Positions 9,146 through 61,570 of a DNA stretch of 64,000 nt are shown here, in pieces. The notes beneath the pieces are model-generated. The model saw nothing but the letters and a program-made list of their open reading frames with translations. It searched no databases and was not told where the DNA came from. Each line of letters begins with the position of its first letter. Within the stretch, counting starts at the first letter, position 1. This DNA is from an uncultured Candidatus Saccharibacteria bacterium (lineage in GTDB: Bacteria > Patescibacteriota > Doudnabacteria > UBA920), in the NCBI GenBank assembly GCA_964648985.1, contig CAZYMS010000004.1, forward strand, positions 2,793 through 66,792, given 5' to 3'. Made by a program: the position numbers and the translations under genes.

Positions 9146-9592
9146 ATGGAACACAGACAAGAAGGACACCAAGAACTCCGCGAGGGTATTACTGCTTTAA
9201 AAGCAGTTGTTATACACGAGGGAAAATATCTGGTTTTAAGACGAGCGGAAGTGAAAAATGGGAAACCCAACGCCTTCCCGGGTTTGTACGACTTTGCTGG
9301 CGGTAAACCAGAGTCGGGTGAAGAGCTTGGAGAAGCCTTAAAACGAGAAGTAAAAGAAGAAACGGGGTTAGACGTAGAAGCAGAAATGGTTGAGGGTGTG
9401 TACCCGGGCCAGCTCGGGAATACTCCCGTTACATTTATTATTTATGCAGTCAGAGTTTTATCTGAAGACATAACCCATGTCCGGCTGACTGGTGAGCACA
9501 CAGAGAGCCTTTGGGTTACGGCACATGAGCTCAGGAGTTTGCCGAGCATGCCGTACATGGAAAGTTATTTAAACGATTTCCAGAAGATATAA
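9146..9592 (+). CDS. NUDIX hydrolase
   Basis: Nudix box 'GGKPESGEELGEALKREVKEETGL'. Confidence 0.8.
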   Translation: MEHRQEGHQELREGITALKAVVIHEGKYLVLRRAEVKNGKPNAFPGLYDFAGGKPESGEELGEALKREVKEETGLDVEAEMVEGVYPGQLGNTPVTFIIYAVRVLSEDITHVRLTGEHTESLWVTAHELRSLPSMPYMESYLNDFQKI

Positions 9593-9600
9593 ATGCTATA

Positions 9601-9640
9601 ACAAGGATCACCCTTGCGCAACGCGAGGGCATCCTTGTTA
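9601..9640. terminator. hairpin of the GGATCACCCT...AGGGCATCC type, just 3' of the Nudix gene
   Basis: Inverted repeat with a GCGCAACGCGA loop. A member of the recurring hairpin family. Confidence 0.4.
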
Positions 9641-9698
9641 CGAGTAAGCATTTTAAAGTTTGCTTTGGTATACTATAGAAAAGTATTAATAAAGAAAC

Positions 9699-10118
9699 AT
9701 GGAATTAAATTATACAGCGATACTAGTCGCCACAATTGCGCAGTTTATTTTTGGGGCCATTTGGTACACACCCATCTTTGGTAAACTCTGGGGAAAGATT
9801 CACGAGTTCGACAAAGTCCCGGCTGACAAGCAAAAGGAAATGATGAAAAACATGTGGAAGCCTTTGCTGGTCCAGCTTATTGTAACTTTCATAACCAGCT
9901 TCGTGTTTGCATTGCTTTTGAACGGTTTCCCCACGGACTGGAACGTGTACGGCTTGGCATTCTTCTTCTGGCTAGGGTTTATTGTGCCAACGCAGGTGGC
10001 CGCAGTGCTGTTTGGTGGCACTAAGCCAGAGTGGGTGCTAACTAAAATAGCCATTATGGCCGGTGCAGCGCTCGGCTGCATGGAAATAGCCGCGGTTGTG
10101 TTTAAGTGGATGATGTAA
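9699..10118 (+). CDS. DUF1761 family membrane protein
   Basis: 'FIFGAIWYTPIFGKLWGK' matches the DUF1761 signature. Confidence 0.55.
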   Translation: MELNYTAILVATIAQFIFGAIWYTPIFGKLWGKIHEFDKVPADKQKEMMKNMWKPLLVQLIVTFITSFVFALLLNGFPTDWNVYGLAFFFWLGFIVPTQVAAVLFGGTKPEWVLTKIAIMAGAALGCMEIAAVVFKWMM

Positions 10119-10136
10119 TACAGACCACTACTATAT

Positions 10137-10173
10137 AAAAGCCGTTACAATGGTCACCATTGTAACGGCTATT
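10137..10173. terminator. perfect 14-bp palindrome AGCCGTTACAATGG-TCA-CCATTGTAACGGCT around GGTCACC, flanked by an A-tract and a T-tract
   Basis: Bidirectional terminator between convergent genes. Confidence 0.55.
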
Positions 10174-10194
10174 GTTATCTTTAAATTTCAAATA

Positions 10195-11138: not shown

Positions 11139-13253
11139 GTGTGCATAAAAAACCAGATAATTACATTACGAACGTCGAGTATTTTTCTATCTGTCCTTGG
11201 CGTTGTATGCACTGCATTCGTACTCGTACTCATATCTCCCGCTCAAGTCGTTCGTGCTGCTACTTCCAGCAACCTTCTTACTAACCCTGGTGCAGAAACA
11301 AGTGACTTCACGGGGTGGACTGTAGTGAACGGGGGAGATGGTTGGGCTATATCAGGTTTGTTCCACACGGGCTCTCGTAGTTTTATTACTTCATATTTTG
11401 ACGGAACCCTTAGTCAGGAAATAAACCTTTCTAATGCAGGATATAATGGCACGGCCATGGACGCGCAGCCGTACATAGATGCGGGTGTGTGGGTCATGGG
11501 GTACGATTCCGGTTCGGGTACGAACGACCCCTATAGTGTGCGGGTTGAGCTCCGTGACGCGAGTCATGCAGCACTCGTCACCTGGGATACAGGGAGTCAA
11601 ACAGCTACGGGAAGCTGGGCAGAGGTTTCGCATAGGTTTACGAACTACGGCACTGGGGTGCGCTATGTATACATGAGGCTTACGGGCCGTTCTTCTGCAT
11701 TTTGGGCAGGACAGTTTGGCGCGGCATTTGATGATGCTTCAGTAACACTGACCACCAGTGAACCGACTGGTTTTATCTCCGGAAGCTATTCGGACAATAA
11801 TAGCGATGGCAAAGTAGACACGCTTACTGCAGCAGTGAATTTTTCCCCGCTTACCACGTGCGATGTGTCCAGTGGTGAACTTGCCTCGGATTGGACTTAC
11901 AATGGAAATTCTTTTGGTGGGAGTATAGCATCGGCGAGTTGCAACTTGTCCACGGGAACTATCACATTTACCCTTACCGGTGGGAGCGATCATTATACTG
12001 GCGGTACCGCGCCAACCATTGCCTATAACAATACTGATGGTGACAACTCCATTGCTAATTCTATTGGTGCCATGGGCACGGTAACTGCGTTTTCGTTGGC
12101 GGATAGCGCAGCCCCTGTACTTCAAGAGGGGACGCCAGTGACTAATCCAACAAACGACAATACTCCAAACTACTCTTTCTTTTCCTCTGAACAAGGCACT
12201 ATTACCTATGCTGGTGGCTGTACTTCTGCTACTACCACTGCCTTTGGAAGCGCAGGGAATGTTATTACGTTTTCTACGCTTGCAGACGGTACCTATGGTA
12301 TTTGCACTATTAAGGTAACAGATGGTAGCGGCAACCAGTCTGCATTGCTTGCAGTAACTCCGTTTACCGTAGACACGACTACGCCAAACATAACTGGCTT
12401 TACTGTATCAATTCTCCGGAGCATTCTTACTGCCACATGGACCACAAATGAAGCCGCCTCTACCCAGCTGCAGTACGAGATCGGTGCGCTTAGTAACGCT
12501 ACTTCAGTTGCAGATACGAGTCCGCGCACTACTTCACATACCGTTATTGTGTCCGGTGTGGACCCGTGTAATCCGTATACTGTTCGAGCAATAAGCGCGG
12601 ATGCTACTGGCAATACTTCGCAAAGCTCATCTTTTAATATAGCTGCTCAGTCGTGCGGAGTTGCCCTGCCCATTGTTGCGTTCGCAGCGCCCGTGCTTCC
12701 CAGTACTGGTTTTCAAGTATCCGCTGCACGTATGGGTAATAAGCTCATTATAACGTCTAACGCTGGAGACGATGTGAAAACCATGGCTGTTGCTACTACC
12801 TCAGATTTTGCGAATACCGGGCAAATACCGTACGCCAAAGTTGTGGAGTGGGGTAGCGATATGCCAGGGTATTCAGGTACTGCAGAAAAAGTCTATGTAA
12901 AGTTTTATACTAGTTGGGGTCAGTCGAGTAGTGTCTACACTGCGCCAGTAGCAAACACTAAAGTCTTAGGAGTAATCACACCTGAAGTGGCAGCACCAAG
13001 TCCACCAACCATACTATTTAAAACAACGTTAACCACACGAAGTAAGAGTCCAGAAGTAAAAGCTTTGCAGGAGTTGCTCAGAACCATGCCTGGCATATAT
13101 CCAGAAGGGTTGGTAACTGGGTACTATGGAAGTGCAACCCGCAGTGCAGTGCAGCGCTTCCAGCTCCAGTACGGTATAGCGCAGAAAAATAGTGGTGGGT
13201 TTGGAATAGTTGGCCCTGCTACCCGAAAGCAGTTAAATGCATTAGTACGTTAG
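11139..13253 (+). CDS. secreted 704-aa repeat protein with an FN3/PAP-N-like module and a C-terminal peptidoglycan-binding (PG_binding_1) domain. Paralogous modules are shared with 13949..17209
   Basis: Signal-peptide-like N-terminus. 'TGGTAPTIAYNNTDGDNSIANSIGAMGTV' parallels 'TSGTPTIAYDNDDGDNSIANSYGSLGTV' in the 1101-aa protein. 'TWTTNEAASTQLQYEIG...' is FN3-like. The C-terminal 'SPEVKALQELL...GYYGSATRSAVQRFQ' is a PG-binding-1 domain. Confidence 0.7.
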   Translation: MCIKNQIITLRTSSIFLSVLGVVCTAFVLVLISPAQVVRAATSSNLLTNPGAETSDFTGWTVVNGGDGWAISGLFHTGSRSFITSYFDGTLSQEINLSNAGYNGTAMDAQPYIDAGVWVMGYDSGSGTNDPYSVRVELRDASHAALVTWDTGSQTATGSWAEVSHRFTNYGTGVRYVYMRLTGRSSAFWAGQFGAAFDDASVTLTTSEPTGFISGSYSDNNSDGKVDTLTAAVNFSPLTTCDVSSGELASDWTYNGNSFGGSIASASCNLSTGTITFTLTGGSDHYTGGTAPTIAYNNTDGDNSIANSIGAMGTVTAFSLADSAAPVLQEGTPVTNPTNDNTPNYSFFSSEQGTITYAGGCTSATTTAFGSAGNVITFSTLADGTYGICTIKVTDGSGNQSALLAVTPFTVDTTTPNITGFTVSILRSILTATWTTNEAASTQLQYEIGALSNATSVADTSPRTTSHTVIVSGVDPCNPYTVRAISADATGNTSQSSSFNIAAQSCGVALPIVAFAAPVLPSTGFQVSAARMGNKLIITSNAGDDVKTMAVATTSDFANTGQIPYAKVVEWGSDMPGYSGTAEKVYVKFYTSWGQSSSVYTAPVANTKVLGVITPEVAAPSPPTILFKTTLTTRSKSPEVKALQELLRTMPGIYPEGLVTGYYGSATRSAVQRFQLQYGIAQKNSGGFGIVGPATRKQLNALVR

Positions 13254-19023: not shown

Positions 19024-19887
19024 ATGAAGCGAAGATTTTTAACTACGGCAGACATACAAACTATTTTAACCAATTTTCGCGTTGGCACTTTGGTGCGCAG
19101 ACATTACATAGACGGTACCATTGAGAACCAGAACTATAAAATAGTAACTACCAAAGGAGTCTACCTTTTAAAAGTATTTGGGGATGCGCACGTGCCGGCA
19201 AAGGATATTGTGTTCCAGAACAACTTTATGACTTACTTGCGGGTGCAGCGGCTTAAAGTCCCTAAAGTTATTCCTACTCAAAGTTCGGAAACAGTTATAG
19301 AGTATGCCGGTAAGCCGGTGTCTGTATACCAATTTGTAGAAGGTGCGCACATAACAAAGTTTACTAAGCAGATAGTTACAAGCTTGGCCAAAGAAATAGC
19401 CAAGCTGCACACGGTGCTATTAAACTATAAGTTACCCAAAGAACACCAGAACACTTACTACTCAGTTAAGGCGCAAGGTTTTGTAAAAGGCAAAAAGCTC
19501 CGGTCGACATTACTCCACGGTGACTTGGGCACGGACAACATACTCATGCGTGGGAGTAGGGTAACCGCCATTATAGACTTTAACAACCTACACTGGAGCT
19601 ACCTTATAAACGACCTAGCCACCTTTGCCTTGGTGTTTCTCAGTAAACAAAACCTTAAGTACATTCCCATGTTTTTTGCTGAGTACCAGAAGTACCTCAA
19701 GCTGACCCAAGACGAAAAGGCTAGTCTGCAGTTTTTTATGACCGAACACACCAAAGGCGTACTCCGCTGGCTTGAACAACAACTCAAGCAAAAACGCGGC
19801 AAACAACTCACATACGTAAAAAAGACAAAAATAGCCTACACAAAGAAGTTAGCGCTGCTTAAACAGAATCGAATTACGATAATATAA
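19024..19887 (+). CDS. aminoglycoside/choline-kinase-type phosphotransferase (APH family)
   Basis: 'LLHGDLGTDNIL' catalytic loop and 'IIDFNN' (DFG-like). Confidence 0.6.
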   Translation: MKRRFLTTADIQTILTNFRVGTLVRRHYIDGTIENQNYKIVTTKGVYLLKVFGDAHVPAKDIVFQNNFMTYLRVQRLKVPKVIPTQSSETVIEYAGKPVSVYQFVEGAHITKFTKQIVTSLAKEIAKLHTVLLNYKLPKEHQNTYYSVKAQGFVKGKKLRSTLLHGDLGTDNILMRGSRVTAIIDFNNLHWSYLINDLATFALVFLSKQNLKYIPMFFAEYQKYLKLTQDEKASLQFFMTEHTKGVLRWLEQQLKQKRGKQLTYVKKTKIAYTKKLALLKQNRITII

Positions 19888-19899
19888 AAACTATACGAT

Positions 19900-19936
19900 A
19901 AAAGCCGTCGCTATAGTTATCTGTGCGATGGCTTTT
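19900..19936. terminator. bidirectional hairpin AAAAGCCGTCGC-loop-GCGATGGCTTTTT
   Basis: Between convergent genes. Confidence 0.55.
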
Positions 19937-19952
19937 TAAGTGTCTCCGCAAA

Positions 19953-21167
19953 CTATATGTTGCGTAACCAGTTTCTCACTTTCCATCTAAAAGTATCCTG
20001 TTCAGCTAGCATGGTTTCAAGGCTATGTTTGCGTAGGATTTCAGAGACTTCAAATATCTTTAATTTTACCTCTGGGATTTCCTTGGTTATTGTAGCCAAT
20101 AGTACTGAATATCTATCGCCATTAGTCCGTTTAAATTGTGATTTAAAATTTTCAAATTGAGCAGCTCTTTCTTGACCAGTTTTTGTGATGTGTTTTACTA
20201 TTTTCTCAACTTCATCAGGCAACTGAGCTTCTATTGCCTGGATTTGCAATTCAATCTCAGGCCGTGCTTCAGCTGGCGCTCTTTTAATCTTTGCCCTCAA
20301 ACTTGCAATTTCGTCTGCATATTTAACTTGTAGCTGTCGAGCCTTGTCGCAAAGTAATTCTGTAAAATGAAGATACGTTTCCGCTGTAGATTCGGTGTTG
20401 GTAATGCAGGCATATTCCGCTACGGCATCCGAACCGCCTGCTTGTATGTGCTGTGCTTCCTCCACCCGTTCACTTAAACGACTAAATTCGCTCTGCGGCT
20501 TTAAGTCTTTGCCTAAACGTTCGAGTGCAACCACCCTGCCGTCGTGTTGCTTTTCTAGGCGCACCCAACCGTCGTCTGTTTTACAAACTACTTCATTTAT
20601 ATTATTCTGAGCGGCATCGCTATAGCCAAGCCCTATGGCAATAGGCTCCTCAAATTCTTGTTTGCCCCAATATACATCCGCTGCGGCAATGAGTTGATTG
20701 TTCTTGTGTATGCGACGAAAGCCATCCATCTTTTTGATTTGGTTTTTATCATAAACCAAGCCAACGGGGCCACCGGCTTGCATATCCCGTTTCACTGCGC
20801 TAGCATCTTCCCGCTTGGGCAGTACAGTTACATGCATGTCAGTAAAGGTTAACTCCCCATATACATGCTGTTCAACTTCTCGGCTTGCTTCGCTTTCCAG
20901 GAATAGTTTATCAGCTGATATTTTTACTCCCCAAGACTGCAAGTATTCTGCTCGCTTGGTAGCAATGTTATTGCCTGCGGTGGCAACTTCCTTTGTTACT
21001 TCCTGCCAGTGGGATTCGCCCAATCTATTGAGTTTGGTATAGTACGCATCGTTGGATGCCGACATGGCGAGCTGGCTTTGCTCCCTGCCCAAACTCGTTT
21101 CTGCCGGGCGTTGGCCTTCAATGTTTCTTTGGGTCATATATAATCTTTTAAGATAAGTATAATACAA
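19953..21167 (-). CDS. hypothetical 404-aa protein. A 'KMDGFR' (KxDGxR-like) sequence hints at a nucleotidyltransferase/ligase-like fold, which is speculative
   Basis: Long ORF with a coiled-coil C-terminal half. 'IKKMDGFRRI' then 'KTDDGWVRL' ~48 aa later resemble ligase motifs I and III, but motifs IV and V are not evident. Confidence 0.45.
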   Translation of the reverse strand: MYYTYLKRLYMTQRNIEGQRPAETSLGREQSQLAMSASNDAYYTKLNRLGESHWQEVTKEVATAGNNIATKRAEYLQSWGVKISADKLFLESEASREVEQHVYGELTFTDMHVTVLPKREDASAVKRDMQAGGPVGLVYDKNQIKKMDGFRRIHKNNQLIAAADVYWGKQEFEEPIAIGLGYSDAAQNNINEVVCKTDDGWVRLEKQHDGRVVALERLGKDLKPQSEFSRLSERVEEAQHIQAGGSDAVAEYACITNTESTAETYLHFTELLCDKARQLQVKYADEIASLRAKIKRAPAEARPEIELQIQAIEAQLPDEVEKIVKHITKTGQERAAQFENFKSQFKRTNGDRYSVLLATITKEIPEVKLKIFEVSEILRKHSLETMLAEQDTFRWKVRNWLRNI

Positions 21168-21605
21168 ACTGGCCTAAAACTCCCGCTTTGCCGTCGTGAT
21201 GGTCACCTTCGCGACCGCTTTTTATACCGAGGGTGAGTGGCTGGAGTTTAATTAGAATTTATTACTTAAATAAAACTAATTCGTTACTTATCCACAATCA
21301 TATTCTTGCCTAACCTTTACAAAAAGTATAGGCTTATTGGGTAGTTCTTTGAAAATCAAGCTAGAATAATAACGGTCAATAATATTTCGAATTTTCTAGA
21401 TATCCGACAGTGATATCTCCCCTTCCAGTCTCGAACTACTTTTAAGACTGACAAGGTTCTCACACACCCGCACGCCCAATTCTCCGCGTTCAAAAGAGAA
21501 GTCCAAGAATGCCGCCCTGTAGTACCTGGGCGATTGGCGAATGGAGTGGTTGAAGTAGAGCAAGCGAGTAGTAAATTAGACATTCAACGTTCGCTTCGCT
21601 CGCGA

Positions 21606-21682
21606 CTACTTAGTAGCTAACGGTTACTTTAGTTCTATACGGAAAGTTATATCGAAATTTTAACCGTTAGAAGCTTAAGTAG
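21606..21682 (+). repeat. long interrupted inverted repeat (about 19 bp stem, 34-nt loop) inside a 0.7-kb ORF-free AT-rich region. Candidate structured ncRNA, possibly retron msr/msd-like
   Basis: CTACTTA-gt-AGCTAACGGTTA (21606-21626) pairs with TAACCGTTAG-aa-GCTTAAGTAG (21661-21682). A second small hairpin AGATATC/GATATCT lies at 21398-21418. Confidence 0.3.
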
Positions 21683-21889
21683 TTGTTTAGGTCGTAAATT
21701 TACAAATGTAGTTAATCCAACTCATAATTTATGGAACATCCAACTTCTCATCCTTTCAGTCTTAGCTTGAACTTTCCGTATTTATGGGCGGTTATACGTT
21801 ATGGAACGATTGTTGCGAATTATCCTGCTAATATTGCAGATTATTCGTTTGCTAATCGATATAATGTACTAGCCGCCCTTTAGTTATTT

Positions 21890-22231
21890 ATGTACACTTT
21901 TCCAATATTATTAAAAAAAATAAGAGAAGAAAGCGGCCTGTCCCAGAAGCAATTGGCTGATGTTTTGGATGTATCTGAAATACTTGTCACTTTGATCGAA
22001 ACCGATAAGAAAGAGCCCTCTCGGAAGTTTATTAATAAGCTCGCTAGTAAACTAGAGGTAAGCCCTAGTTCTATAACTCCATTTATGATTGATGTTGCCG
22101 AAGAGAGTAATTTGTCTTTAATAGAAAGAAAATTATTCAATGTCGCATCAAAAATTCAAGAGTATTTGATATCAAAGAAGTCTCATAATTTAAATAAATA
22201 TATAAAAAATGGTTATGCTCCCGAAGATTAA
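21890..22231 (+). CDS. XRE-family helix-turn-helix protein, overlapping the downstream RT gene
   Basis: 'LLKKIREESGLSQKQLADVLDVSEILVTLIETDKKEPSRKFINKLASKL' is a canonical Cro/C1-type HTH. A TATAAT sits at 21860-21865. Confidence 0.65.
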   Translation: MYTFPILLKKIREESGLSQKQLADVLDVSEILVTLIETDKKEPSRKFINKLASKLEVSPSSITPFMIDVAEESNLSLIERKLFNVASKIQEYLISKKSHNLNKYIKNGYAPED

Positions 22232-23189
22232 TATCCGAAGCATTGCCGAGCTATCCCGCCGTTTGTCTGACAAGTCGCTGCCTAGACAGAGGGCGCTGGC
22301 GCTCATTCAGGATGTCCTGGCCAATCAGTTCAGACTTTGGAAAGATTCAAAAGCATCAGATGCGTCTAAAAGAAAGTTTGTCCGCAATGCTAAGCGAACA
22401 AAGTTGGGTAACTTATTGCATCTCATTGACCATAAGGTTCTTGCTGTGCACGATAAAGAATTACCAGGATTTATATTTGGTGGGGTTACATCAAAAAGTC
22501 ATTTGGATGCCGCTTTTGCTTTAATGGGCAATAGTAGAAAAAGAACATTATTAGCTCTAGATATCAGTACTTTTTTTGAAAATGTTGATGCTGCAAGCGT
22601 TACCAACTTTTTTTGTAAAGCAGGGTGCTCTCTAAAGTTGGCTGAACAGTTGAGTAATGTCTGCTGCGTGCCAGAGGGTCCAAAAGATAATCCTAGTCCT
22701 TTCAGGACACTGGCTCGTGGTTTTGCAACTTCCACTCGTCTGGCGACTTGGGTCAATATAGGTACTTTTAAGAAGTTAGAGTTGCTAGTGAGAAATAGGC
22801 TCCGAAGATTTGACCCTAGAATCGCCATCTTTGTGGATGATATAGGTATTACCGCAAGTAATGTGCCAAAAGCAAAGATGGTGTCCTTAGGCCTAGAGAT
22901 ACAGAAGCTATTGGCAACTTTTGATAATAATCAACCTCTCCCCCTTAACGCTAAGAAGAGCAAAGTTCTTACATGGGAAGAGGGTATGGAACACTTGGGT
23001 GTTCGTCTTGGGAAAGGCGGTTTGTCCCCAGGCAGAAAATCTCAGATAAAATACGCAAAGCTTTTGAACGAGATAGGAAAAACTAACAATAACTTTCAAA
23101 GAAGGAAGTTATTGCAAAAGAAAAAGGGGCATACACGATATAGGCGGTTTATTAGGCAGAGTAATGTAGCGCGTACCACATCTGTATAA
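22209..23189 (+). CDS. prokaryotic reverse transcriptase (retron/Abi/defence-RT-like)
   Basis: RT motif 2 'RKRTLLALDISTFFENV' (compare retron 'KRYILKIDLKDFFHSI'). Motif B-like 'RGFATSTRLATWV'. Motif C 'IAIFVDDIGITAS' (YxDD). Thumb-like 'HLGVRLG'. Confidence 0.65.
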   Translation: MVMLPKINIRSIAELSRRLSDKSLPRQRALALIQDVLANQFRLWKDSKASDASKRKFVRNAKRTKLGNLLHLIDHKVLAVHDKELPGFIFGGVTSKSHLDAAFALMGNSRKRTLLALDISTFFENVDAASVTNFFCKAGCSLKLAEQLSNVCCVPEGPKDNPSPFRTLARGFATSTRLATWVNIGTFKKLELLVRNRLRRFDPRIAIFVDDIGITASNVPKAKMVSLGLEIQKLLATFDNNQPLPLNAKKSKVLTWEEGMEHLGVRLGKGGLSPGRKSQIKYAKLLNEIGKTNNNFQRRKLLQKKKGHTRYRRFIRQSNVARTTSV

Positions 23190-23234
23190 ATAAAAGCAAT
23201 GAATATATGCTGACTGTTTTTATTTATGCTTCTT

Positions 23235-24713
23235 TTAATTTCTTGGCTCTTGCAGTAATTTCAAAGCGCGAGAGCGGGATAAGTTAAAGGCTTGCCATCG
23301 ATTGTTTTCGGTTTCAAGTTTAGTTTGTTGACTTGCTAGCCAGCTTCGTAGTTGTTCTTTATTATCGCCATCGAGCTTATGGTAGAGCTCTACTTTTTGG
23401 GTGGTGGCGTCTGGAGAAAGACTTGCTATGTAGTAGGTATCTATTTTCCCAGTTTTGCTGTATCGTTTTAGATTTGAGTTGGCTATGTAAGCGTCGGGGT
23501 TTATGAGGTTCACTACTATTAAGAACGCTGTGCCGGTGAGGAGTGTACCAAAGGTAAAAAAGTTCTCCGGTTTGGTTTTTATGAACTTTATTGCAAGGAG
23601 TATGAACAGTGCAAGTAGGAAAATTACGAACACTGTTACGTAAAATCGTTGTTCTGTTAGGCTGTAGGCGTCTATATATAGTGAGAGGCGTTTGAAGGCG
23701 GAGATAATTACAACTATAACTTCGGTTATGAGTACTAAGGCAGGCACTAAGAAGTGCTTATTCTTTTTTTCTTCTGTACCCGCAAACTGTTCTGAGGCAA
23801 GTAGTACAAACAGCGAGAGTATAGCCACCATGAGTAGTTCCCAAAAACCTCGGCGGGCGTATTCGGCATAGGTAAAGCCCCAGGTGGTTATGTTGGCTTG
23901 GCCCCCAAAGAGGTAGGTAACTTGGAAGCCAATGAAGAGGAAAAAGAGAAGAGAGATGAGAGACAAGAAAACTAGCACTTCTATGCTGCGGTCAGAATTA
24001 ATGCTGGATTCCGGTCTTCCCGCACTCGAAGACTCGTTTGTGGAAACCGGAATGACAGGGGGGGAGAAGAATATATAGGATAGATAACAAAGTCCAGTCA
24101 CGAAAGCGAATGCGAGGAGCACAAGGTACTGTATGGAGCGTTCTGAAATATTTATATCTATAAAGTTGCTCAGAAATTGCGAAAAAGCTAGGTCTGCTTG
24201 GGAAAAGAGCGCACCGAATATTATTAAAATAGGTACGGCCATAACCACGCCTTTAAGTACGCGAATCCACACGTCTCGGTGTTGTACGTTGCTGTGAATT
24301 TGCCCGAGTTTAGAAACGGTAGAAAGACCTCTGCCCAACATGCGGAACGGTACGAGCATTGCAAGCAGGAAGTAGTCCCGTACTTTCATAAGAAAAACGG
24401 GAGTACCAATTAGTTGGTGGGCGAGCAGTATGAGCAAGCCAAAAGTTGCTACAACATTCAGTAAAGTTAAAAATTCATTTGCGCGAATGCCGGGCATGAG
24501 ACTAAAGAAAGCTATGAGCGCTACTAACCACCACGTTTGTTTGAGAGGTACTTTCTGGTAGTGCGCAAAGCCGAGTACAGTCCCGAGTAGGATAACCACG
24601 AACACAAAAACGGAAATACCAATAAGCTTGCTAAAGAATAAATAGTTAAAAACTAGGGCTAGGCCTAAACTTAGGAGAATAATGTAGAGCGCTTTTTTGA
24701 GAGTGGGATTCAT
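23235..24713 (-). CDS. large polytopic membrane protein (DUF4153/DUF4173-like)
   Basis: 492 aa with more than 10 TM helices. Confidence 0.45.
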   Translation of the reverse strand: MNPTLKKALYIILLSLGLALVFNYLFFSKLIGISVFVFVVILLGTVLGFAHYQKVPLKQTWWLVALIAFFSLMPGIRANEFLTLLNVVATFGLLILLAHQLIGTPVFLMKVRDYFLLAMLVPFRMLGRGLSTVSKLGQIHSNVQHRDVWIRVLKGVVMAVPILIIFGALFSQADLAFSQFLSNFIDINISERSIQYLVLLAFAFVTGLCYLSYIFFSPPVIPVSTNESSSAGRPESSINSDRSIEVLVFLSLISLLFFLFIGFQVTYLFGGQANITTWGFTYAEYARRGFWELLMVAILSLFVLLASEQFAGTEEKKNKHFLVPALVLITEVIVVIISAFKRLSLYIDAYSLTEQRFYVTVFVIFLLALFILLAIKFIKTKPENFFTFGTLLTGTAFLIVVNLINPDAYIANSNLKRYSKTGKIDTYYIASLSPDATTQKVELYHKLDGDNKEQLRSWLASQQTKLETENNRWQAFNLSRSRALKLLQEPRN

Positions 24714-25718: not shown

Positions 25719-25830
25719 AAAATATGCTTGTTTATTGATACATATATAGTAGTCTACTATTTATCGTTTGTCAATATATGATTATTGATATGCAATTGAT
25801 TTGTTCATAAATGTAACCATTTTTTAAATC

Positions 25831-25866
25831 AAAAACCACCCAGAAAAAGTTCGTGGGTGGTTTTTG
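25831..25866 (-). terminator. hairpin AAAAACCACCC-loop-GGGTGGTTTTT
   Basis: Sits 19 nt 3' of the small minus-strand ORF at 25885..26055. Confidence 0.5.
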
Positions 25867-25884
25867 GTGCTGTGCCTGCGGTAG

Positions 25885-26055
25885 CTAGTGAACAATACCG
25901 GCTAGGTGCAGGATCCAAACACACAGACTGAGCTCAACAAAGAAAAGGCCAAGGCCAACTGGGCTGCCCCAGGAAAACCATGAGCCCCAGGAGCGCCAGT
26001 TTGCCATGGGCCAGTTTTCTTCGTTGTGCTTCTTGTGTTGCTCGCTTATATCCAT
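25885..26055 (-). CDS. small Trp-rich membrane peptide (56 aa), below the ORF-track cutoff
   Basis: MDISEQHKKHNEENWPMANWRSWGSWFSWGSPVGLGLFFVELSLCVWILHLAGIVH, followed immediately by a terminator hairpin. Confidence 0.3.
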   Translation of the reverse strand: MDISEQHKKHNEENWPMANWRSWGSWFSWGSPVGLGLFFVELSLCVWILHLAGIVH

Positions 26056-26338: not shown

Positions 26339-26755
26339 ATGACAAGCAAACTAAATCCGTATCTACATTTTGATGGAAAAGCTAAGGAAGCAATGGAGTT
26401 TTATAAGGGCGCGTTTGGTGGTGAGCTTACCATGAGTACTTTTGCGCAGGGCATGCCTGGTGGTGACGTTGCAGATGCAGAGAAGATTATGCACGCGCAG
26501 CTTATTGTCCCAAACGGCATGACCCTTATGGCTTCGGATGCACCAAAGGGCTGGCCGCTTAACCCAGGTATGAGTGTTAGTATGTCTTTGAGCGGTGACG
26601 ACGAAGCAGAGCTAAAAGGTTATTGGGATAAATTGGCCGAAGGCGGAAAAATAACTCAGCCCCTTGTACCGGCTCCGTGGGGCGACCAGTTTGGTATGCT
26701 CACTGATAAATACGGTATGGAATGGATGGTTAACATTGCTGGCAAAAAAGCATAA
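26339..26755 (+). CDS. VOC / PhnB-like protein
   Basis: 'LHFDGKAKEAMEFYKGAFGGEL'. Paralog of 8043..8468. Confidence 0.7.
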   Translation: MTSKLNPYLHFDGKAKEAMEFYKGAFGGELTMSTFAQGMPGGDVADAEKIMHAQLIVPNGMTLMASDAPKGWPLNPGMSVSMSLSGDDEAELKGYWDKLAEGGKITQPLVPAPWGDQFGMLTDKYGMEWMVNIAGKKA

Positions 26756-26765
26756 TATACCAAAA

Positions 26766-26815
26766 AGAAAAAGGGCCACCCTTTGCGCAATGCAAAAGGT
26801 TGACCCTTTTTCTTT
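26766..26815. terminator. bidirectional hairpin AAAAAGGGCCACCCTTT-GCGCAATGCA-AAAGGTTGACCCTTTTT
   Basis: GGGT.ACCC hairpin family, between convergent genes. Confidence 0.5.
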
Positions 26816-26819
26816 TTAA

Positions 26820-27323
26820 TCAAGGAGTTAGCTTAGGGGTATTGAGTTCGTCTTCGGCAGCTCGTCCGAGTTCAAGCAGGTAGTCAATATCGGTAACACT
26901 TAAGCTGCGAGGCTTTATATCTTTAATGCAGAATACCCCAATGGGCAAGTGAGTAGTGCGGTTATGCAGGGCAATCCCGGCGTAAAAGCGAATGTGCGGC
27001 GCACCTACCACCATAGGGTTGTCTTTAAAGCGTTCATCTTTGAGTGTATCTTCCACAATAAATACAAATTTACTGTACATGGCGTGTCCGCAGAATGATA
27101 CGGTGCGGTCACAGGTGCGTTGTTCTAGCCCCTGGCATGATTTATATATTTCTTTATCCTGACCAATTAAGCTAATAGTAGAAATGGGGACATGAAAGAA
27201 ATCTACTGCTGCTTTGGTTAGGCGGTCGAACCGCTCTTCCGGACTTGCGAGGTCCAGTAACCCGAGGGCGTGGAGCGAGTCCAGCCGTTCTTGCTCTCCA
27301 GGCAAGATGGGTGCGAGTTGCAT
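26820..27323 (-). CDS. stand-alone GAF-domain protein
   Basis: GAF-like core 'FIVEDTLKDERFKDNPMVVGAPHIRFYAGIAL'. Confidence 0.6.
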   Translation of the reverse strand: MQLAPILPGEQERLDSLHALGLLDLASPEERFDRLTKAAVDFFHVPISTISLIGQDKEIYKSCQGLEQRTCDRTVSFCGHAMYSKFVFIVEDTLKDERFKDNPMVVGAPHIRFYAGIALHNRTTHLPIGVFCIKDIKPRSLSVTDIDYLLELGRAAEDELNTPKLTP

Positions 27324-30709: not shown

Positions 30710-33700
30710 ATGCCCCACATGCCGTCCGTAGTCAAACTTTTTTTCCTTGCCAGCTGCTTTGTGCTAGCTGGGTTTTTATTTCTAGCAAGTCCAATAAAAG
30801 CTGCTGTAGCTGAGGAGGTCGTTGCATCGTCGGAGACATCGCTTGCAGCACTAGTTCCCACCCAAGAAGTAGCTACAACTTCAGCTGAGGGAGTAGCAAG
30901 TGAGCCAGCTCCTACGGTAGTTGCAGAAGTCACTGTAAGTGAAGAAATAATCGATGCACCTGAAGCAGAAGCTGCCCCAGGTACTGAAGGCGCCGATGTT
31001 CCTGAGGCCACAACTCCAGCACCTGAAGCCAGCACTTCTACCTCCGAGGATGCCAGTGCCCAGGTGCTGATTGTTTCAGAAGCTACGGAGCAAGAAGGTG
31101 CATTAGATACTGCCCCGGATGTTGCTGAAGTTCCAGAAGAGTCGAGTGAAGAAGTGGTGCCCGAAATTATAGCAGCAGGGCCAGAGCAAGTTGCACAAAC
31201 TGAGGAAGCAGCATCAGTTGCAGAGAGCGGTGCGGCCCCAAGTGCAAAGTCCGCTCCAGAGGAAATAATTTCTGAAACTCCTGTTGCGGAAACCCCTGCT
31301 CAAGGCACAGAGATGACACCAGAGGTAGAAGTTCCAGCAGTGGAAGTTGCGGAGACAGCAAGTGAAATTTCTGTGGGAGAAGAATTGCCTGTAGCTGAAG
31401 TTACAGAAATTGCACAATCAACCGCGATTGAGGAAGCGCTAGAAACTGAGAGTGTGGCTCCAACAGTAGAAGAAAATATTTCTGAGACAGTAGAAGCAGA
31501 AACGGAAGTCGCATCTACTGTAGATGCGACACCAACAGTGGTAGAAGAATTTACCAGCAATGGAAAAACAGTGGTGGTATCTTCTACGGAAGAGCAAGAG
31601 CTGGTGCATCCTATGGTCAACGTTCCAGTAGGTACCGACATACCAGAAATATTTCGAGTGGGTCAGGAAGATCAGATAAAAATAAAATGGCAAAACAATG
31701 ATGGTCAGGAAATGCAGTTCACTGCGCTCGACACAAATGACAACGGATATATTGACCGTGTCGAGTGGATAGTGCCGCATCTTTCAACTCAAACGTTTGA
31801 AATTATTTATATTTCCAATGCGTTACTTTTGGACGAACATAAAAATACCGTTGGTGATATATACGGGCTTGTGGCGACGCAGGACCAAAACTATGCGAGC
31901 GTAACCAACGGGCAATTCGTGCGCGTAACATTTGAGCATATCTTAAATGAAAGTAGAGATATTACCCTCTATGCCAAGCCGGCGAATCCAGCAGAGCCAG
32001 CAACTATAGAAGCGTATACCGTAGACGGCCAGCGCATAGCTACGTTTGCAACCATAGACCATGACGGAAAATACAGAATAATTCTTCTGGGACTTTCCAA
32101 TCCTTCCGCAGTGTTCGATTTGAAAGTTACGGGCGCTGTTGATATTGACTTTATTATTGACCCACCGGCAAATGCGTATTGGGTTGGCGGCGCGGGTAAT
32201 TGGTCTGATGCTGCTAATCACTGGGCAACAACATCTGGTGGAGCCCCGGGCGCAGGTAATGCCCCTGATGCAACTAGTAATGTAATTTTTGATGCTTCTT
32301 CTGGGTCTGCTTCTGATATTGTGAATATTGATACCACTATAACTATTGGTTCGTTAGCTATAAATGGTTTTACTGGTACAATTTCTCAAAATGCAGATGT
32401 GAGCATAACTAATTCTGGCGGACAGTCAGGAAGTTATTCACAAACTTCAGCCGCTACTTGGACAGCGCCAGATCCTGGTACAGACACTTTTTCTGCTACT
32501 GGAAGTTTTTCGGTGACAGCTGGAACATTTAGGCGTTACACCGGAACAGGTATCAGCACCGATCCATTCGTAATTTATGACGTTTACGGCTTACAGGCAA
32601 TGAAAACCAATCTCGCAAATTCATATCGGTTAAATGGTAACATTGATGCATCTGTAACTACCGGTTGGAATTCTGGGGAAGGATTTGTACCAGTTGGAAC
32701 AAATATCACAAACTTTACTGGAAATTTTGATGGCGCAGGATTTGTTATAAGCGATTTATTTATTAACTCAACAACTTTAAGTTATGTTGGGTTATTTGGT
32801 TATACTCTTGGTAGTATTCAAGATTTGACATTGACTAATGCAGATATTACTGGTGTCGGGATTGCTGGGAGTAATGGATCCGATGGTGCAGCCGGAAGTT
32901 CCGGTACTACCCCAACTGTTGGTGGTACTGGTACTATTGGCACCGCCGGCAGTATTTTATATATTGGAGGTTTGGCGGGTTATAACGCTGGAACGATTAC
33001 TAATATTAGCATTTCTGGAACTGTAACTGGAACTGGCGGAGCAGGTGGTAATTCGGGTAATGGTGGTGCAGGCGGAAACACTACGAGCGGAGCAACTGTA
33101 TCTGGAGCAGGTGGTACTTCGTTAGCTGGCGGAGCGGGTGCAGTAGTATATAGCGGAGGTTTAATTGGCTACTCTGCTCAAGGTAGCATAAATGATTCTA
33201 GTTCTTCGGCAATCGTAACTGGAACTGGCGGAGCAGGTGGTAATTCGGGTAATGGTGGTGCAGGCGGAACTAATTCTGGTTCTGGTATTGGTGGCGCAGG
33301 TGGTGGAGTAGGTGCACCGGGTGTTGGTGGTATAAGTTATACAGGTGGTCTAATTGGTTGGGTCAACTCCGGTATTGTTGTAACATCTTTTGCAACCGGC
33401 AATGTTATTGCTGCTGGTGGAACGGGTGGTTCTGCCGGTGCGGCAGGCGTGGGTGGTGCTGGTGGTACAGCAGCTATTGGCGGCGCTGGCGGCGCTGGCG
33501 GTACGGGTGCAACTGGCGGCGCTAGTTTTGCTGGAGGTTTGGTTGGAAATAATTTAGGTAACATTCGTTTTGCTTCATATGCGACAGGGGATATAACTGC
33601 TACTGGAGGTACACCTGGGAATGGTTCTGCCGGAGGGACTGCAGGGGCAAGTGCAGTTGCAACTACTGGAACAGCTGCAACAGGGGGCGCCGGTGGCGTT

Positions 33701-59820: not shown

Positions 59821-61570
59821 TACATCCAAAGACCAGCAAGGCAAGTCCTCTGCACTGGCTGCTGCAAAAAAACTCTGGCCACTGCTTGCTACGGAAAAAG
59901 AAATTATTACAGCTGCCCTTATTGCAGTCATATTGAACTCACTGGTAAACTTGTTCGCGCCACGTCTTATAGCGCATGTGGTAGATACGTTTTTGCCAAT
60001 TAAAGATTACCACCATGTGTTGGTATACAGCGGCATCATACTTGCTATGTATACCTTTGGCCTGGTCACCAGCTATGCCCAAACACGGCTCATGGGCGGG
60101 GTAGGGCAGCGCGTGCTCTATCGTTTACGCAACTTAGTTTTTACCAAACTGCAGGAATTGCCAGTTGGATTTTTTAGTGCGAACAAAGCAGGCGATCTTA
60201 TATCCCGTATAAATAATGATACTGATAAGATAAATCAGTTCTTCTCCCAATCTTTGGTTCAATTTATGGGTAGTGTATTCCTTATGATAGGGGCCGCTAT
60301 ATTCTTGCTTTCCATTCACTTTGCACTTGGCGGCGCTGCTTTACTTCCTGCAGTTGCATTGCTTATATTTACCCAGCTTATTTCCGGATGGGTCAAGCGC
60401 CGTAACCTTTCCAGTATGCAGAGTCTGGGTGGTATGAGTGCTGAAATTCAGGAGAGCCTTAATAATTTTAAAGTAATAATTGCGTTTAATCGCCGAGATT
60501 ATTTCCGTAAGCGTTTTCAGGAAGTAAATGAGCAAAATTATACGGCATCTATTGGTTCTGGGCTTGCAAACAATACGCTGGTGCCGGTATACGGTCTTGC
60601 TTCAAATTTAGGTCAGCTCATTGTTTTGAGTTACGGTATATATCTTATTTCCACCGGTAGCTTCACCATAGGTTTGCTTATTAGTTTTCTTTCGTATGCA
60701 AATAACTTCTACAATCCACTTCGTCAGCTGGCTGCTTTGTGGGCAAGTTTTCAGCAAGCCATGGCAAGTTGGGACCGTGTTCATGAAATACTTTCTCTGG
60801 AGACAAATCTGGTCACAATACCAACACAAGGTGAAGGGTCAAGATCCAATGCGCTGCTCGAGTTTCACAATGTACATTTTAAGTATGTAGATGACGGAGC
60901 AGAAATACTTCACGGTATAAATCTAAAACTTGAGCAGGGTAAAACCTATGCCTTGGTTGGTCCTACGGGCGGGGGAAAAACTACTACTGCGTCGCTCATG
61001 GCTCGGCTCTATGATCCAACCGAAGGTAGTGTGCTGCTGGGCGGTCAAGATATTCGCAGTTTTAGCGCAGAAGAGCGGACAAAAAAGATTGGATTTATTT
61101 TGCAAGATCCTATACTTTTTACGGGTACTGTCCGCGAGAATTTAGCTTACGGCAATGTTGAGTATAAAGACCTAACCAGTGAACAGTTGGAAAAAGTGAT
61201 TAATGATGCAGGACTCGGGAGCTTGCTTGCGCGGTTCGACGAAGGTTTGGAAACAAAGATAACTGCAACAGGCGATTCCATTAGTCTTGGTCAAAAGCAG
61301 CTTATAGCGTTCATGCGTGCAGTGCTCCGTAAACCCGAACTGCTTATACTTGATGAAGCTACAGCTAACATAGATACCGTTACGGAAGGATTGCTTCAGC
61401 AGGTACTTGATAAACTACCGCAGTCTACTACTCGCGTTATTATTGCGCACCGCTTGAACACCATAGCCAACGCAGATGAAATATTCTTCGTGAATTCCGG
61501 ATCGCTCACCCCTGCCGGTTCCATGGAGCACGCAGTGGATATGCTGCTACACGGAAAACGTGAGAGCTAA
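59804..61570 (+). CDS. ABC exporter, fused permease/ATPase (heterodimer subunit 2)
   Basis: Walker A 'GPTGGGKTT', signature 'LGQKQLIAF', 'LILDEAT'. It overlaps subunit 1 by 17 nt. Confidence 0.85.
   Translation: MNYSLNTSKDQQGKSSALAAAKKLWPLLATEKEIITAALIAVILNSLVNLFAPRLIAHVVDTFLPIKDYHHVLVYSGIILAMYTFGLVTSYAQTRLMGGVGQRVLYRLRNLVFTKLQELPVGFFSANKAGDLISRINNDTDKINQFFSQSLVQFMGSVFLMIGAAIFLLSIHFALGGAALLPAVALLIFTQLISGWVKRRNLSSMQSLGGMSAEIQESLNNFKVIIAFNRRDYFRKRFQEVNEQNYTASIGSGLANNTLVPVYGLASNLGQLIVLSYGIYLISTGSFTIGLLISFLSYANNFYNPLRQLAALWASFQQAMASWDRVHEILSLETNLVTIPTQGEGSRSNALLEFHNVHFKYVDDGAEILHGINLKLEQGKTYALVGPTGGGKTTTASLMARLYDPTEGSVLLGGQDIRSFSAEERTKKIGFILQDPILFTGTVRENLAYGNVEYKDLTSEQLEKVINDAGLGSLLARFDEGLETKITATGDSISLGQKQLIAFMRAVLRKPELLILDEATANIDTVTEGLLQQVLDKLPQSTTRVIIAHRLNTIANADEIFFVNSGSLTPAGSMEHAVDMLLHGKRES

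What the first reader, a model, noticed from the sequence alone, without database searches (positions are those of the whole stretch)
21606..21682. Long interrupted hairpin in the ORF-free region upstream of the HTH-RT pair: candidate msd/msr-like structured RNA
CTACTTA..AGCTAACGGTTA at 21606-21626 pairs with TAACCGTTAG(aa)GCTTAAGTAG at 21661-21682. This gives a stem of about 19 bp around a 34-nt loop. The surrounding 720 bp has no ORF longer than 75 codons and contains further small hairpins at 21398-21418 and 21496-21530. A stable long stem-loop next to an RT is the hallmark of retron msd, and it could also be a DGR template region.
Basis: seen in the sequence. Interest (0 to 1): 0.6.

Follow-up and report, generated by a model that had tools for sequence, protein, structure and literature searches.

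The report
Type VI retron structured-RNA hairpin
The hairpin is real and is the conserved core stem-loop of the structured RNA of a type VI retron, a reverse-transcriptase anti-phage system described in 2025-26; its loop also base-pairs with the small gene just downstream, which may show how reverse transcription switches that gene on.

Summary
The hairpin exists as described: outer stem 21602-21614/21673-21686, inner stem 21617-21626/21661-21670, 34-nt loop. Its stability alone is unremarkable (top ~2% of GC-matched windows). The comparative evidence is what makes it real. The genes downstream are a 50-codon ORF (21731-21883), a Cro/C1-type HTH (21890-22231) and a 326-aa RT (22209-23189). The HTH and RT best match PADLOC HTH_VI and RT_VI. 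This is the published type VI retron layout: ncRNA, small protein (SP), HTH, RT.

In 82 non-redundant homologous loci, mostly Patescibacteria MAGs, both stems keep pairing through many compensatory changes. The conserved loop motif (21640-21648) forms a covarying long-range helix with SP codons 14-16 (21770-21778): 93% paired, 146 double changes against 18 expected. The 5' arm of the outer stem can alternatively pair with the SP stop-codon region. The rest of the SP ORF folds into a 93-nt covarying arm.

I conclude the hairpin is the "first arm" of a type VI retron hybrid RNA. It is probably the RT template (msd), by analogy with Retron-Vpa2. That assignment, the priming site and any cDNA are untested. 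A DGR template is excluded. This is a new member of a known kind, with a possibly undescribed loop-ORF pseudoknot.

The parts
21558..21601 (+). P0: stem-loop immediately 5' of the hairpin (GAGCAAGCGA...TCGCTTCGCTC). [quoted passage not shown]
   Evidence: Present in the MFE folds. In 42 of 60 loci a predicted hairpin ends 0-4 nt before P1, often with the motif CAAG..CTTG. Covariation on the unfitted alignment is weak, about 40% paired, so support is moderate.
21602..21686 (+). The hairpin of the finding. P1 outer stem is 21602-21614 with 21673-21686. P2 inner stem is 21617-21626 with 21661-21670. The apical loop is 21627-21660. This is the first arm of the hybrid RNA and the probable RT template (msd).
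   Evidence: - Fold.
- CM hit at 21598-21687, 49.9 bits.
- P2 is 80-92% paired on the unfitted alignment.
- On the CM alignment P1 is 81.7% and P2 91.1% paired, with 287 double-change cells against 111 +/- 12 shuffled, and about 40% paired when partners are slid.
- G.U outnumbers A.C 128 to 41.
- 100% identical in the 95%-RT relative L130.
21637..21648 (+). PK 5' strand: conserved apical-loop motif ATACGGAAAGTT, with its conserved core at 21640-21648.
   Evidence: - 12 of 12 nt complementary to 21770-21781.
- Covaries with that site in 82 loci: 92.9% paired, 146 double-change cells against 18 +/- 4, 0 of 500 shuffles, 31-54% paired when slid.
- At least 8 contiguous pairs in 79 of 82 loci.
21687..21730 (+). 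Linker between the hairpin and the SP start codon. It carries a motif AGGTCG (21689-21694) that recurs in many of the aligned loci.
   Evidence: Alignment A2. No conserved helix was established here. The local fold is weak, -6.5 kcal/mol.
21731..21883 (+). Small ORF (SP, 50 codons) embedded in the structured RNA. It is the presumed counterpart of the type VI toxic small protein.
   Evidence: - An ATG-started ORF of 44-60 codons is present in 79 of 82 non-redundant loci.
- The other two frames are open in 0 of 79.
- A strong SD precedes it in 10 of 79 loci, mainly the Saccharibacteria-type ones.
- A public gene caller called it in L130.
21770..21781 (+). PK 3' strand: AACTTTCCGTAT, which is SP codons 14-17 (N-F-P-Y). 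It pairs with the hairpin loop.
21786..21878 (+). P3/P4: long hairpin arm made of the 3' two-thirds of the SP ORF. Basal helix P3 is 21786-21794 with 21870-21878. This is the third arm of the hybrid RNA.
   Evidence: - MFE -41.8 kcal/mol for 21784-21880.
- It is the most stable GC-matched 97-nt window in the 64 kb.
- P3 is 87.5% paired with many double changes on the unfitted alignment.
- The inner P4 pairs are poorly aligned, so their support is weaker.
21881..21885 (+). Alternative partner (H4) of the 5' arm of P1 (21604-21608). It covers the SP stop codon and the 2 nt after it, just upstream of the HTH start. It is an a1/a2-like long-range helix.
   Evidence: 80.4% paired against 22-53% when slid. 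The third base of the stop codon covaries with the 5' arm: C-G in 35 loci, U-A in 25, U-G in 9.
21890..22231 (+). Cro/C1-type HTH protein, 113 aa.
   Evidence: - Pfam HTH_3, E = 2e-11.
- PADLOC HTH_VI, E = 5e-14.
- Present in 118 of 130 loci.
- Almost no SD (1 of 79 loci); it starts 4-16 nt after the SP stop in most loci.
22209..23189 (+). Reverse transcriptase, 326 aa, catalytic FVDD. It overlaps the HTH gene by 23 nt.
   Evidence: - Pfam RVT_1.
- PADLOC RT_VI at E = 4e-23, against RT_IV at 7e-11.
- All 35 aligned homologues match RT_VI, which also gives the lowest E-value of any family (2.6e-34).
- D210 and D211 are invariant.
23184..23229 (+). Terminator-like hairpin with a U-rich tail at the end of the RT gene.
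   Evidence: Fold -13.0 kcal/mol, z = -3.65. It appears as a self-complementary BLAST hit.

Best explanation
**What it is.** The hairpin is the main stem-loop ("first arm") of the about 330-nt structured transcript of a type VI retron, spanning roughly 21556-21890 on the plus strand. The transcript is a "hybrid RNA": a non-coding 5' domain followed by a small ORF (SP) that is itself folded into the RNA. The HTH and RT genes follow it.

**What is shown here.**
- The hairpin's two stems are conserved by covariation.
- Its apical loop forms an 8-12 bp long-range helix (pseudoknot) with SP codons 14-17.
- The 5' arm of its outer stem has a second, mutually exclusive partner at the SP stop codon.
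- The 3' two-thirds of the SP ORF form a long closed arm.

**What is inferred, by analogy with Retron-Vpa2 and Retron-Sen3.**
- RT and HTH bind this RNA.
- The RT copies the hairpin into single-stranded cDNA (msDNA), mainly after phage-derived triggers.
- The SP is a toxic effector held in check until then.

**My proposed mechanism for this clade (inference).**
- The loop-ORF pseudoknot and the closed arm keep the SP ORF locked against translation.
- Reverse transcription through the hairpin removes the loop strand, by unwinding or by RNase H.
- Alternatively, free cDNA titrates the loop in trans. The cDNA loop has the same sequence as the SP site, so it acts as a decoy.
- Either route frees the ORF for translation.
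- HTH and RT are probably translationally coupled to the SP ORF.
For: **Proteins.**
- PADLOC RT_VI at E = 4e-23 and HTH_VI at E = 5e-14.
- All 35 homologues match RT_VI, which also has the lowest E-value of any family.
- The gene order small ORF, HTH, RT with overlaps holds in about 40 of 49 genome loci and in 118 of 130 loci overall. This matches the published type VI layout (PMC7736814; 10.64898/2026.04.27.721009).

**RNA.**
- P2 is 80-92% paired, P3 87.5%, and the pseudoknot 92.9%, with 146 double changes against 18 +/- 4. All of this is on a MAFFT alignment not fitted to any structure.
- P1 is 81.7% and P2 91.1% paired on the CM alignment.
- The H4 helix shows stop-codon covariation.
- G.U exceeds A.C about 3:1 in every helix.
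- CM hits are far stronger on the RT strand.
- The whole 340-nt RNA has z = -5.0.
- Against a 95%-RT relative, the RNA is the most conserved part of the module: hairpin 100%, hybrid RNA 98.5%, RT 95.5%, flanking gene 76.6%.

**ORF.** Open in 79 of 82 loci; the other frames are open in 0 of 79.

**Published analogues.**
- The Vpa2 hybrid RNA has three arms. The msDNA maps to the long stem-loop of the first arm, and msDNA is needed for, and sufficient in trans for, SP translation.
- Sen3 has a stem-loop just upstream of the 5' repeat, and a pairing between the sequence after that stem-loop and the HTH start region. These match P0 and H4 here.
Against: - There are no experimental data for this locus or clade: no transcript, no cDNA, no toxicity assay.
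- The one CPR type VI retron tested in E. coli gave no detectable ssDNA.
- No canonical a1/a2 pair enclosing msr plus msd, and no conserved branching G next to a helix end, could be identified.
- The apical loop is conserved in sequence. That is more typical of a protein-recognition (msr-like) element than of an msd loop.
- The P3/P4 arm is longer, more stable, and adjacent to the a2-like strand.
- The 7-nt direct repeats proposed to mediate msDNA action in Vpa2 were not found.
- The SP is 44-60 aa and rich in N, D, H and Y. The SPs of the three clusters described by Mestre et al. are 75-79 aa three-helix bundles.
- Both conserved "peptide motifs" coincide with RNA helices, so a toxin role for the peptide is unproven.
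- RT_VI scores are modest (80 bits), so the clade could be a sister of the classical type VI.
- Hairpin stability alone is not exceptional.
Confidence: 0.75

Rival explanations
1. The system is the same (a type VI retron hybrid RNA), but the hairpin is not the template. On this reading it is an msr-like domain for RT/HTH recognition and regulation. The reverse-transcribed msd is the long P3/P4 arm inside the SP ORF (21786-21878). Synthesis would be primed next to the a1/a2-like helix H4 (21604-21608 with 21881-21885).
For: - The order a1, 5' hairpin, long 3' hairpin, a2 mirrors canonical retrons.
- P3/P4 is the most stable GC-matched element in the window, and it abuts the H4 3' strand, which covaries with the 5' arm.
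- The apical loop of the finding's hairpin is sequence-conserved, like msr loops.
- Period-3 invariant T's in the P4 region point to nucleotide-level constraint there.
Against: - In Retron-Vpa2, RT-dependent DNA maps to the long stem-loop of the first arm, upstream of the SP.
- In Retron-Sen3, the candidate DNA stem-loop is also upstream of the SP.
- Copying and RNase H digestion of the SP coding region would destroy the mRNA. That fits poorly with msDNA-dependent activation of SP translation.
Confidence: 0.18
2. The inverted repeat works at the DNA level, as an operator for the adjacent HTH protein. Alternatively, it is simply a transcription terminator or attenuator. Either way it is not a retron RNA domain.
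For: - An HTH regulator is encoded next to it.
- Palindromic half-sites can also appear to covary.
Against: - G.U outnumbers A.C 128 to 41 in the stems, and there is a strong strand asymmetry in both fold energy and CM score.
- About 20 bp of stem around a 34-nt loop is far larger than an operator.
- The loop covaries with a site 120 nt away.
- No U-tract follows the stem.
- The upstream gene is on the other strand.
Confidence: 0.03
3. It is a DGR template repeat, or a chance hairpin with no function.
For: - An RT is adjacent.
- 1.8% of GC-matched windows fold as stably.
Against: - No second, variable copy of 21225-21900 exists anywhere in the 64 kb.
- The RT best matches retron models, not DGR RTs.
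- The element is conserved with covariation in about 75 of 82 distant loci.
Confidence: 0.02

Closest known systems
Retron-Vpa2 hybrid RNA (type VI retron, Vibrio parahaemolyticus; Zhang et al., bioRxiv 10.1101/2025.10.22.683967)
   Same: - Operon: structured RNA, SP, HTH, RT.
- The SP ORF is embedded in a multi-arm RNA.
- A long stem-loop sits in the first arm.
- The 3' end of the RNA pairs back to the base of the first arm.
- The SP is about 50 aa.

All of these features are seen here.
   Different: - Vpa2 is described as having 7-nt direct repeats, one in an msd loop and one in a riboregulator loop, and an RBS and AUG sequestered in stem-loops.
- Here no conserved direct repeats were found. 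The linker around the AUG folds weakly.
- Instead, the apical loop is complementary to SP codons 14-17.
- The catalytic motif is FVDD rather than YADD.
- The hosts are mostly Patescibacteria.
- I could not obtain the Vpa2 sequence, so I could not test whether the same pseudoknot exists there.
Retron-Sen3 / cl2075 type VI retrons (Garcia-Rodriguez et al., bioRxiv 10.64898/2026.04.27.721009)
   Same: - A conserved stem-loop lies immediately upstream of the 5' repeat (P0 here).
- A long internal stem-loop upstream of the SP is the candidate DNA stem-loop.
- The SP coding region shows covarying base pairs.
- The sequence after the 5' stem-loop pairs with the HTH start region (H4 here).
   Different: - The Sen3 stem-loop is about 166 nt with a variable centre. 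Here it is 85 nt with a conserved loop.
- The Sen3 long-range pair IR1-IR2 joins the 3' part of SL3 to a site after the SP stop. Here the apical loop pairs inside the ORF.
- cl2075 SPs are 75-79 aa, against about 50 aa here.
- cl2075 hosts are Beta- and Gammaproteobacteria.
Canonical retron msr-msd ncRNA (e.g. Retron-Eco1/Ec86)
   Same: - A structured RNA is encoded immediately upstream of, and on the same strand as, a retron-family RT.
- It has a long stable hairpin of msd-like size.
   Different: - No a1/a2 pair encloses separate msr and msd hairpins.
- No conserved branching G was identified.
- No Rfam hit down to E = 10.
- A protein-coding ORF lies inside the RNA.
- In type VI the cDNA activates rather than neutralises the effector, according to the Vpa2 preprint.

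Membership tests
Type VI retron | RT belongs to the type VI RT clade (Mestre RT clade 3) | tested here: met
   PADLOC RT_VI at E = 4e-23 (80 bits), against the next best RT_IV at 7e-11. All 35 homologues match RT_VI, and it has the lowest E-value of any family. No phylogeny with reference sequences was possible, so a sister-clade position is not excluded.
Type VI retron | Small (91-110 aa) Cro/C1-type HTH protein immediately upstream of, or overlapping, the RT gene | tested here: met
   The HTH is 113 aa. It matches Pfam HTH_3 at E = 2e-11 and PADLOC HTH_VI at E = 5e-14, and it overlaps the RT gene by 23 nt. It is present in 118 of 130 loci.
Type VI retron | Small accessory protein (SP) gene upstream of the HTH gene | tested here: met
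   The ORF of 44-60 codons is present in 79 of 82 loci, and the other frames are never open. Its similarity to published SP clusters, its fold and its toxicity were not tested. Its length differs from the 75-79 aa clusters.
Type VI retron | Conserved structured RNA upstream of the SP, extending through the SP ORF (hybrid RNA) and supported by covariation | tested here: met
   (covariation). (z = -5.0 for 340 nt).
Type VI retron | 7-nt direct repeats in an msd loop and a riboregulator loop (Vpa2-type hybrid RNA) | tested here: not met
   No conserved direct-repeat run of 5 or more columns appears in the 82-sequence alignment. This test depends on the alignment. An inverted, pairing relationship is found instead.
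Type VI retron | RT-dependent single-stranded cDNA templated by the RNA; anti-phage defence | not testable with these tools
   This needs cDNA sequencing and phage assays. The catalytic aspartates (FVDD) are intact and invariant.
Canonical retron (msr-msd) | a1/a2 inverted repeats enclosing msr and msd, with a branching G at the end of a1 | tested here: inconclusive
   There are two candidate helices for the 5' arm: P1 and H4. Neither is followed by a conserved G, and only one hairpin lies inside P1.
Canonical retron (msr-msd) | Similarity to described RNA families, including any curated retron RNA families | tested here: not met
   There is no Rfam match in 19500-24000 down to E = 10 apart from two chance snoRNA hits. 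There is none at gathering score in the whole window.
Diversity-generating retroelement | Template repeat plus a near-identical variable repeat in a target gene; DGR-type RT | tested here: not met
   No second copy of 21225-21900 exists in the 64 kb. The RT matches retron models.

The most novel reading that the evidence does not exclude
In this mostly candidate-phyla clade, the switch that couples reverse transcription to effector production may be the pseudoknot between the hairpin's apical loop and codons 14-17 of the small ORF.
- The cDNA of the loop has the same sequence as the mRNA site.
- So the msDNA, or the act of copying the hairpin, would unlock translation by competing for the loop as an mRNA decoy.
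- It would not act by hybridising to the mRNA.
- The alternative pairing of the stem's 5' arm with the stop-codon / HTH-start region would make it a two-state RNA switch.

This would be a concrete and different mechanism from the direct-repeat model proposed for Retron-Vpa2.
Probability: 0.3. Interest if true: 0.7.

Novelty: new member of a known kind. Interest (0 to 1): 0.45.

Why it matters
Type VI retrons are the odd ones out among retrons. Their cDNA is scarce at rest and appears to activate, not restrain, the toxic effector. How the RNA couples the two is an open question in two recent preprints.

This locus belongs to a large, diverse clade, with over 100 loci found here, mostly in Patescibacteria. 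That diversity gives unusually clean covariation.

- It pins down a specific loop-ORF helix and an alternative pairing at the stop codon. Both can be mutated and tested directly.
- It shows that this clade of type VI-like modules with their hybrid RNA is found mostly in ultra-small, host-dependent bacteria.
- The covariance model built here could be used to annotate the element, which is absent from Rfam.

Tried and rejected
- **Rfam.** Searched around the locus at E up to 10, and over the whole window at gathering score. Nothing relevant.
- **tRNA / tmRNA.** None in the window.
- **RNAalifold on the raw hairpin alignment.** It returned no structure because the alignment was too gappy. I supplied the window's structure to build the CM instead.
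- **First CM alignment.** It was contaminated by minus-strand hits of the near-palindromic hairpin. I redid it with a stricter threshold.
- **mafft-qinsi.** Not installed.
- **Reference type VI loci.** I looked for Vpa2-, Eco12- or Sen3-like loci to test for the same pseudoknot. tblastn of the RT against plasmids found nothing. The preprints' supplements hold no RNA sequences. That comparison could not be made.
- **PDB.** The single sequence gave no hit. The profile gave only weak hits to a group II maturase and the Ec86 RT.
- **Direct repeats.** A scan for conserved direct repeats in the style of Vpa2 found none.
- **Second loop motif.** TCGRAA (21652-21658) does not pair with the SP site. 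Its role is unknown.
- **Promoter scan.** Not above chance. The best site, at 21699-21728, lies inside the RNA.
- **DGR reading.** Rejected.
- **Operator or terminator reading.** Rejected.
- **Host identity.** Not resolved. The exact RT is found only on a short Logan contig from SRR13208906.

Full report
**1. The observation**

RNAfold on the plus strand gives:
- an outer stem, 21602-21614 with 21673-21686;
- 2-nt internal loops;
- a perfect 10-bp inner stem, 21617-21626 with 21661-21670;
- a 34-nt loop.

The MFE is -29.4 kcal/mol, with z = -3.2 and 2 of 200 dinucleotide shuffles as good. The minus strand folds less well, at -21.6 kcal/mol.

Stability alone is not decisive. In a sliding scan of the whole window, 1.8% of GC-matched 97-nt windows fold at least as well. 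The most stable of them is the neighbouring segment starting at 21781. There is no Rfam match.

**2. The neighbourhood**

Three plus-strand genes follow the hairpin:
- a 50-codon ORF, 21731-21883;
- a 113-aa Cro/C1-type HTH protein, 21890-22231;
- a 326-aa reverse transcriptase, 22209-23189, which overlaps the HTH gene.

PADLOC models give HTH_VI at E = 5e-14 and RT_VI at E = 4e-23. The next best RT model is RT_IV at 7e-11. All 35 aligned RT homologues match RT_VI, and RT_VI gives the lowest E-value of any family. A terminator-like hairpin closes the operon at 23184-23229.

This is the type VI retron layout. Mestre et al. defined the type as a clade-3 RT plus a small Cro/C1 HTH, often with a small accessory protein (PMC7736814). 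Two preprints describe how it works.
- In Retron-Vpa2, a structured "hybrid RNA" of about 470 nt carries both the RT template and the coding sequence of a toxic small protein (SP). RT, HTH and the RNA form a complex. [quoted passage not shown] That cDNA is required for SP translation, and it is sufficient when supplied in trans (10.1101/2025.10.22.683967).
- In Retron-Sen3, a conserved ncRNA, a stem-loop just upstream of its 5' repeat, and an SP region under RNA structural selection are described (10.64898/2026.04.27.721009).

**3. Relatives**

The RT has one 95%-identical relative. All other homologues are at most 56% identical. Those carrying a source name are mostly from Patescibacteria, with single entries from Planctomycetes and Chitinophagaceae. 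Scans gave 49 genome loci, which added Bdellovibrionales, Bacteriovorax and Gammaproteobacteria MAGs, and 80 metagenome loci.

Of 130 loci, 118 have the HTH gene abutting the RT gene. After removing near-duplicates, 82 remained. An ATG-started ORF of 44-60 codons (median 51) ends just before the HTH gene in 79 of the 82. Over the same span the other two frames are never open, 0 of 79.

**4. The hairpin is a conserved RNA**

On a MAFFT alignment of the 82 loci that was not fitted to any structure (A2), the inner stem is 80-92% paired. In most of its pairs, 17-29 sequences have changed on both sides.

I built a covariance model from the hairpin alignment. It finds one plus-strand hit in the window: 21598-21687, 49.9 bits, E about 1e-9. 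It also hits about 75 of the 82 loci, always much better on the RT strand.

On the 60 best plus-strand hits:
- the outer stem is 81.7% paired and the inner stem 91.1%;
- there are 287 double-change cells against 111 +/- 12 in shuffles;
- about 40% are paired when partners are slid.

This alignment is fitted to the model, so it leans towards the structure. The unfitted alignment agrees for the inner stem.

G.U pairs outnumber A.C mismatches 128 to 41. That argues for a plus-strand RNA rather than a DNA palindrome. Against the 95% relative L130, the hairpin is 100% identical and the whole RNA 98.5%. The RT gene is 95.5% identical and the flanking gene 76.6%.

**5. What else the RNA does**

An all-against-all covariation scan and the counting tool give three further helices.

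(a) *A pseudoknot.* The conserved apical-loop motif pairs with SP codons 14-17. In the window these are ATACGGAAAGTT (21637-21648) and AACTTTCCGTAT (21770-21781), which are 12 of 12 complementary.
- Across the family the 9 core pairs are 92.9% paired.
- There are 146 double-change cells against 18 +/- 4 in shuffles, reached by 0 of 500 shuffles.
- Slid controls are 31-54% paired.
- At least 8 contiguous pairs are present in 79 of 82 loci.
- Examples: CGGACGCC/GGCGTCCG, CAGGAGGT/ACCTCCTG, ACAAAACGCT/AGCGTTTTGT.

(b) *A closed arm.* The ORF segment right after that site (21786-21794) pairs with the ORF's 3' end (21870-21878). This helix is 87.5% paired and closes a 93-nt arm of -41.8 kcal/mol.

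(c) *An alternative pairing.* The 5' arm of the outer stem (21604-21608) can also pair with the SP stop codon and the two bases after it (21881-21885). This helix is 80% paired. TAG or TAA covaries with C or U in the arm.

A further stem-loop (P0, 21558-21601) sits directly upstream in most loci. The full 340-nt RNA folds with z = -5.0.

This three-arm picture matches the published descriptions of type VI hybrid RNAs: a first arm, a linker with the start codon, an ORF arm, and a 3' end pairing back to the first arm. Neither preprint's text mentions a loop-ORF helix or pseudoknot.

**6. Mechanism**

*Shown:* the architecture and its conservation.

*Inferred from the Vpa2 and Sen3 work:* RT and HTH bind the RNA, the RT copies the first-arm stem-loop, and the SP is the effector.

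*My inference for this clade:* the pseudoknot and the closed arm lock the ORF. Copying the hairpin removes the loop strand and opens the ORF. Free cDNA could do the same in trans, because its loop has the sequence of the SP site and would compete for the RNA loop.

The HTH gene has almost no Shine-Dalgarno sequence (1 of 79 loci). It starts 4-16 nt after the SP stop in most loci, and the RT gene overlaps it. Translational coupling along the operon is therefore likely.

The main rival keeps the same system but makes the ORF arm the template and this hairpin an msr-like recognition domain. The geometry (a1, 5' hairpin, long 3' hairpin, a2) favours the rival. The experimental mapping in Vpa2 and Sen3 disfavours it.

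**7. Rejected readings**

- *DGR template.* No second copy of the region exists in 64 kb, and the RT is retron-type.
- *Operator or terminator.* The strand asymmetry, the size, the absence of a U-tract and the long-range covariation all argue against it.
- *Chance.* Excluded by conservation.

**8. Limits**

- There are no experimental data for this clade.
- No branching G or canonical a1/a2 pair was identified.
- Vpa2-style 7-nt direct repeats were not found.
- The SP differs in length and composition from the described clusters, and its conserved "peptide motifs" coincide with RNA helices.
- RT_VI scores are modest, and no reference phylogeny was possible.
- The host of the window is unknown.

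**Verdict.** The retron-RNA interpretation is supported in kind. The msd assignment is plausible but unproven. This is a new member of a recently described kind, with a well-supported structural detail (the loop-ORF pseudoknot) that may be new and is directly testable.

Noticed in passing
window 21786-21878: A 93-nt hairpin arm lies inside the small ORF. It is more stable than the reported hairpin (-41.8 kcal/mol for 21784-21880) and is the most stable GC-matched 97-nt window in the whole 64 kb. Its basal helix covaries across 82 loci.
   Followed up: yes
window 21823-21862 (SP codons 31-44): Eight T's that are invariant or more than 90% conserved all fall on third codon positions of the small ORF. 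Codons are mostly NAT or NNT, giving N, D, H and Y. First positions vary while the 'AT' stays fixed, the opposite of ordinary coding constraint. T at position 3 is 45% in SP against 30% in the HTH genes.
   Followed up: partly
window 21648-21660: A second conserved loop motif, TATATCGAAATTT (family consensus TCGRAA), is a degenerate tandem copy of the pairing motif. It does not pair with the SP site. Its role is unknown, and it contains a conserved G.
   Followed up: partly
window 21225-23871 vs L130:641-3295: Homology with the 95%-RT relative starts abruptly at 21225, and the upstream neighbours differ. The retron module is 95-100% identical while the downstream DUF4153 gene is only 76.6% identical. 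This suggests recent transfer of the module or much stronger constraint on it.
   Followed up: partly
window 21225-21555: An ORF-poor 330-nt stretch upstream of the conserved RNA is 90% identical in L130. It includes the 21398-21418 hairpin. L130 has a 7-nt insertion (GACGATT) around 21530. It may hold the promoter, but no convincing sigma-70 site was found.
   Followed up: partly
window 21890 and 22209; 79 related loci: The HTH start almost never has a Shine-Dalgarno sequence (1 of 79 loci). It lies 4-16 nt after the SP stop in most loci, and the RT gene overlaps the HTH gene. This suggests translational coupling of the whole operon to the small ORF.
   Followed up: partly
L034, L051, L111; L017, L038, L039, L051, L066, L107, L111: Three of the 82 loci lack an intact small ORF. 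About seven lack a significant hit to the hairpin model. More distant RTs (L002, L042, L046-L048) also lack a hit. These may be decayed or variant systems.
   Followed up: no
window 30710-47245: A single ORF of 5511 codons. Only 25 ORFs of 180 or more codons occur in the 64 kb under the standard bacterial code.
   Followed up: no
window 11139-13253: The predicted protein combines a eukaryote-type F-box-associated (FBA) domain with a peptidoglycan-binding domain.
   Followed up: no
window ~9565-9700, 10081-10190, 25789-25900, 26725-26850, 61561-61680: Other unusually stable plus-strand folds for their GC content, at -30 to -35 kcal/mol per 97 nt. They are possibly terminators or other RNA elements.
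   Followed up: no
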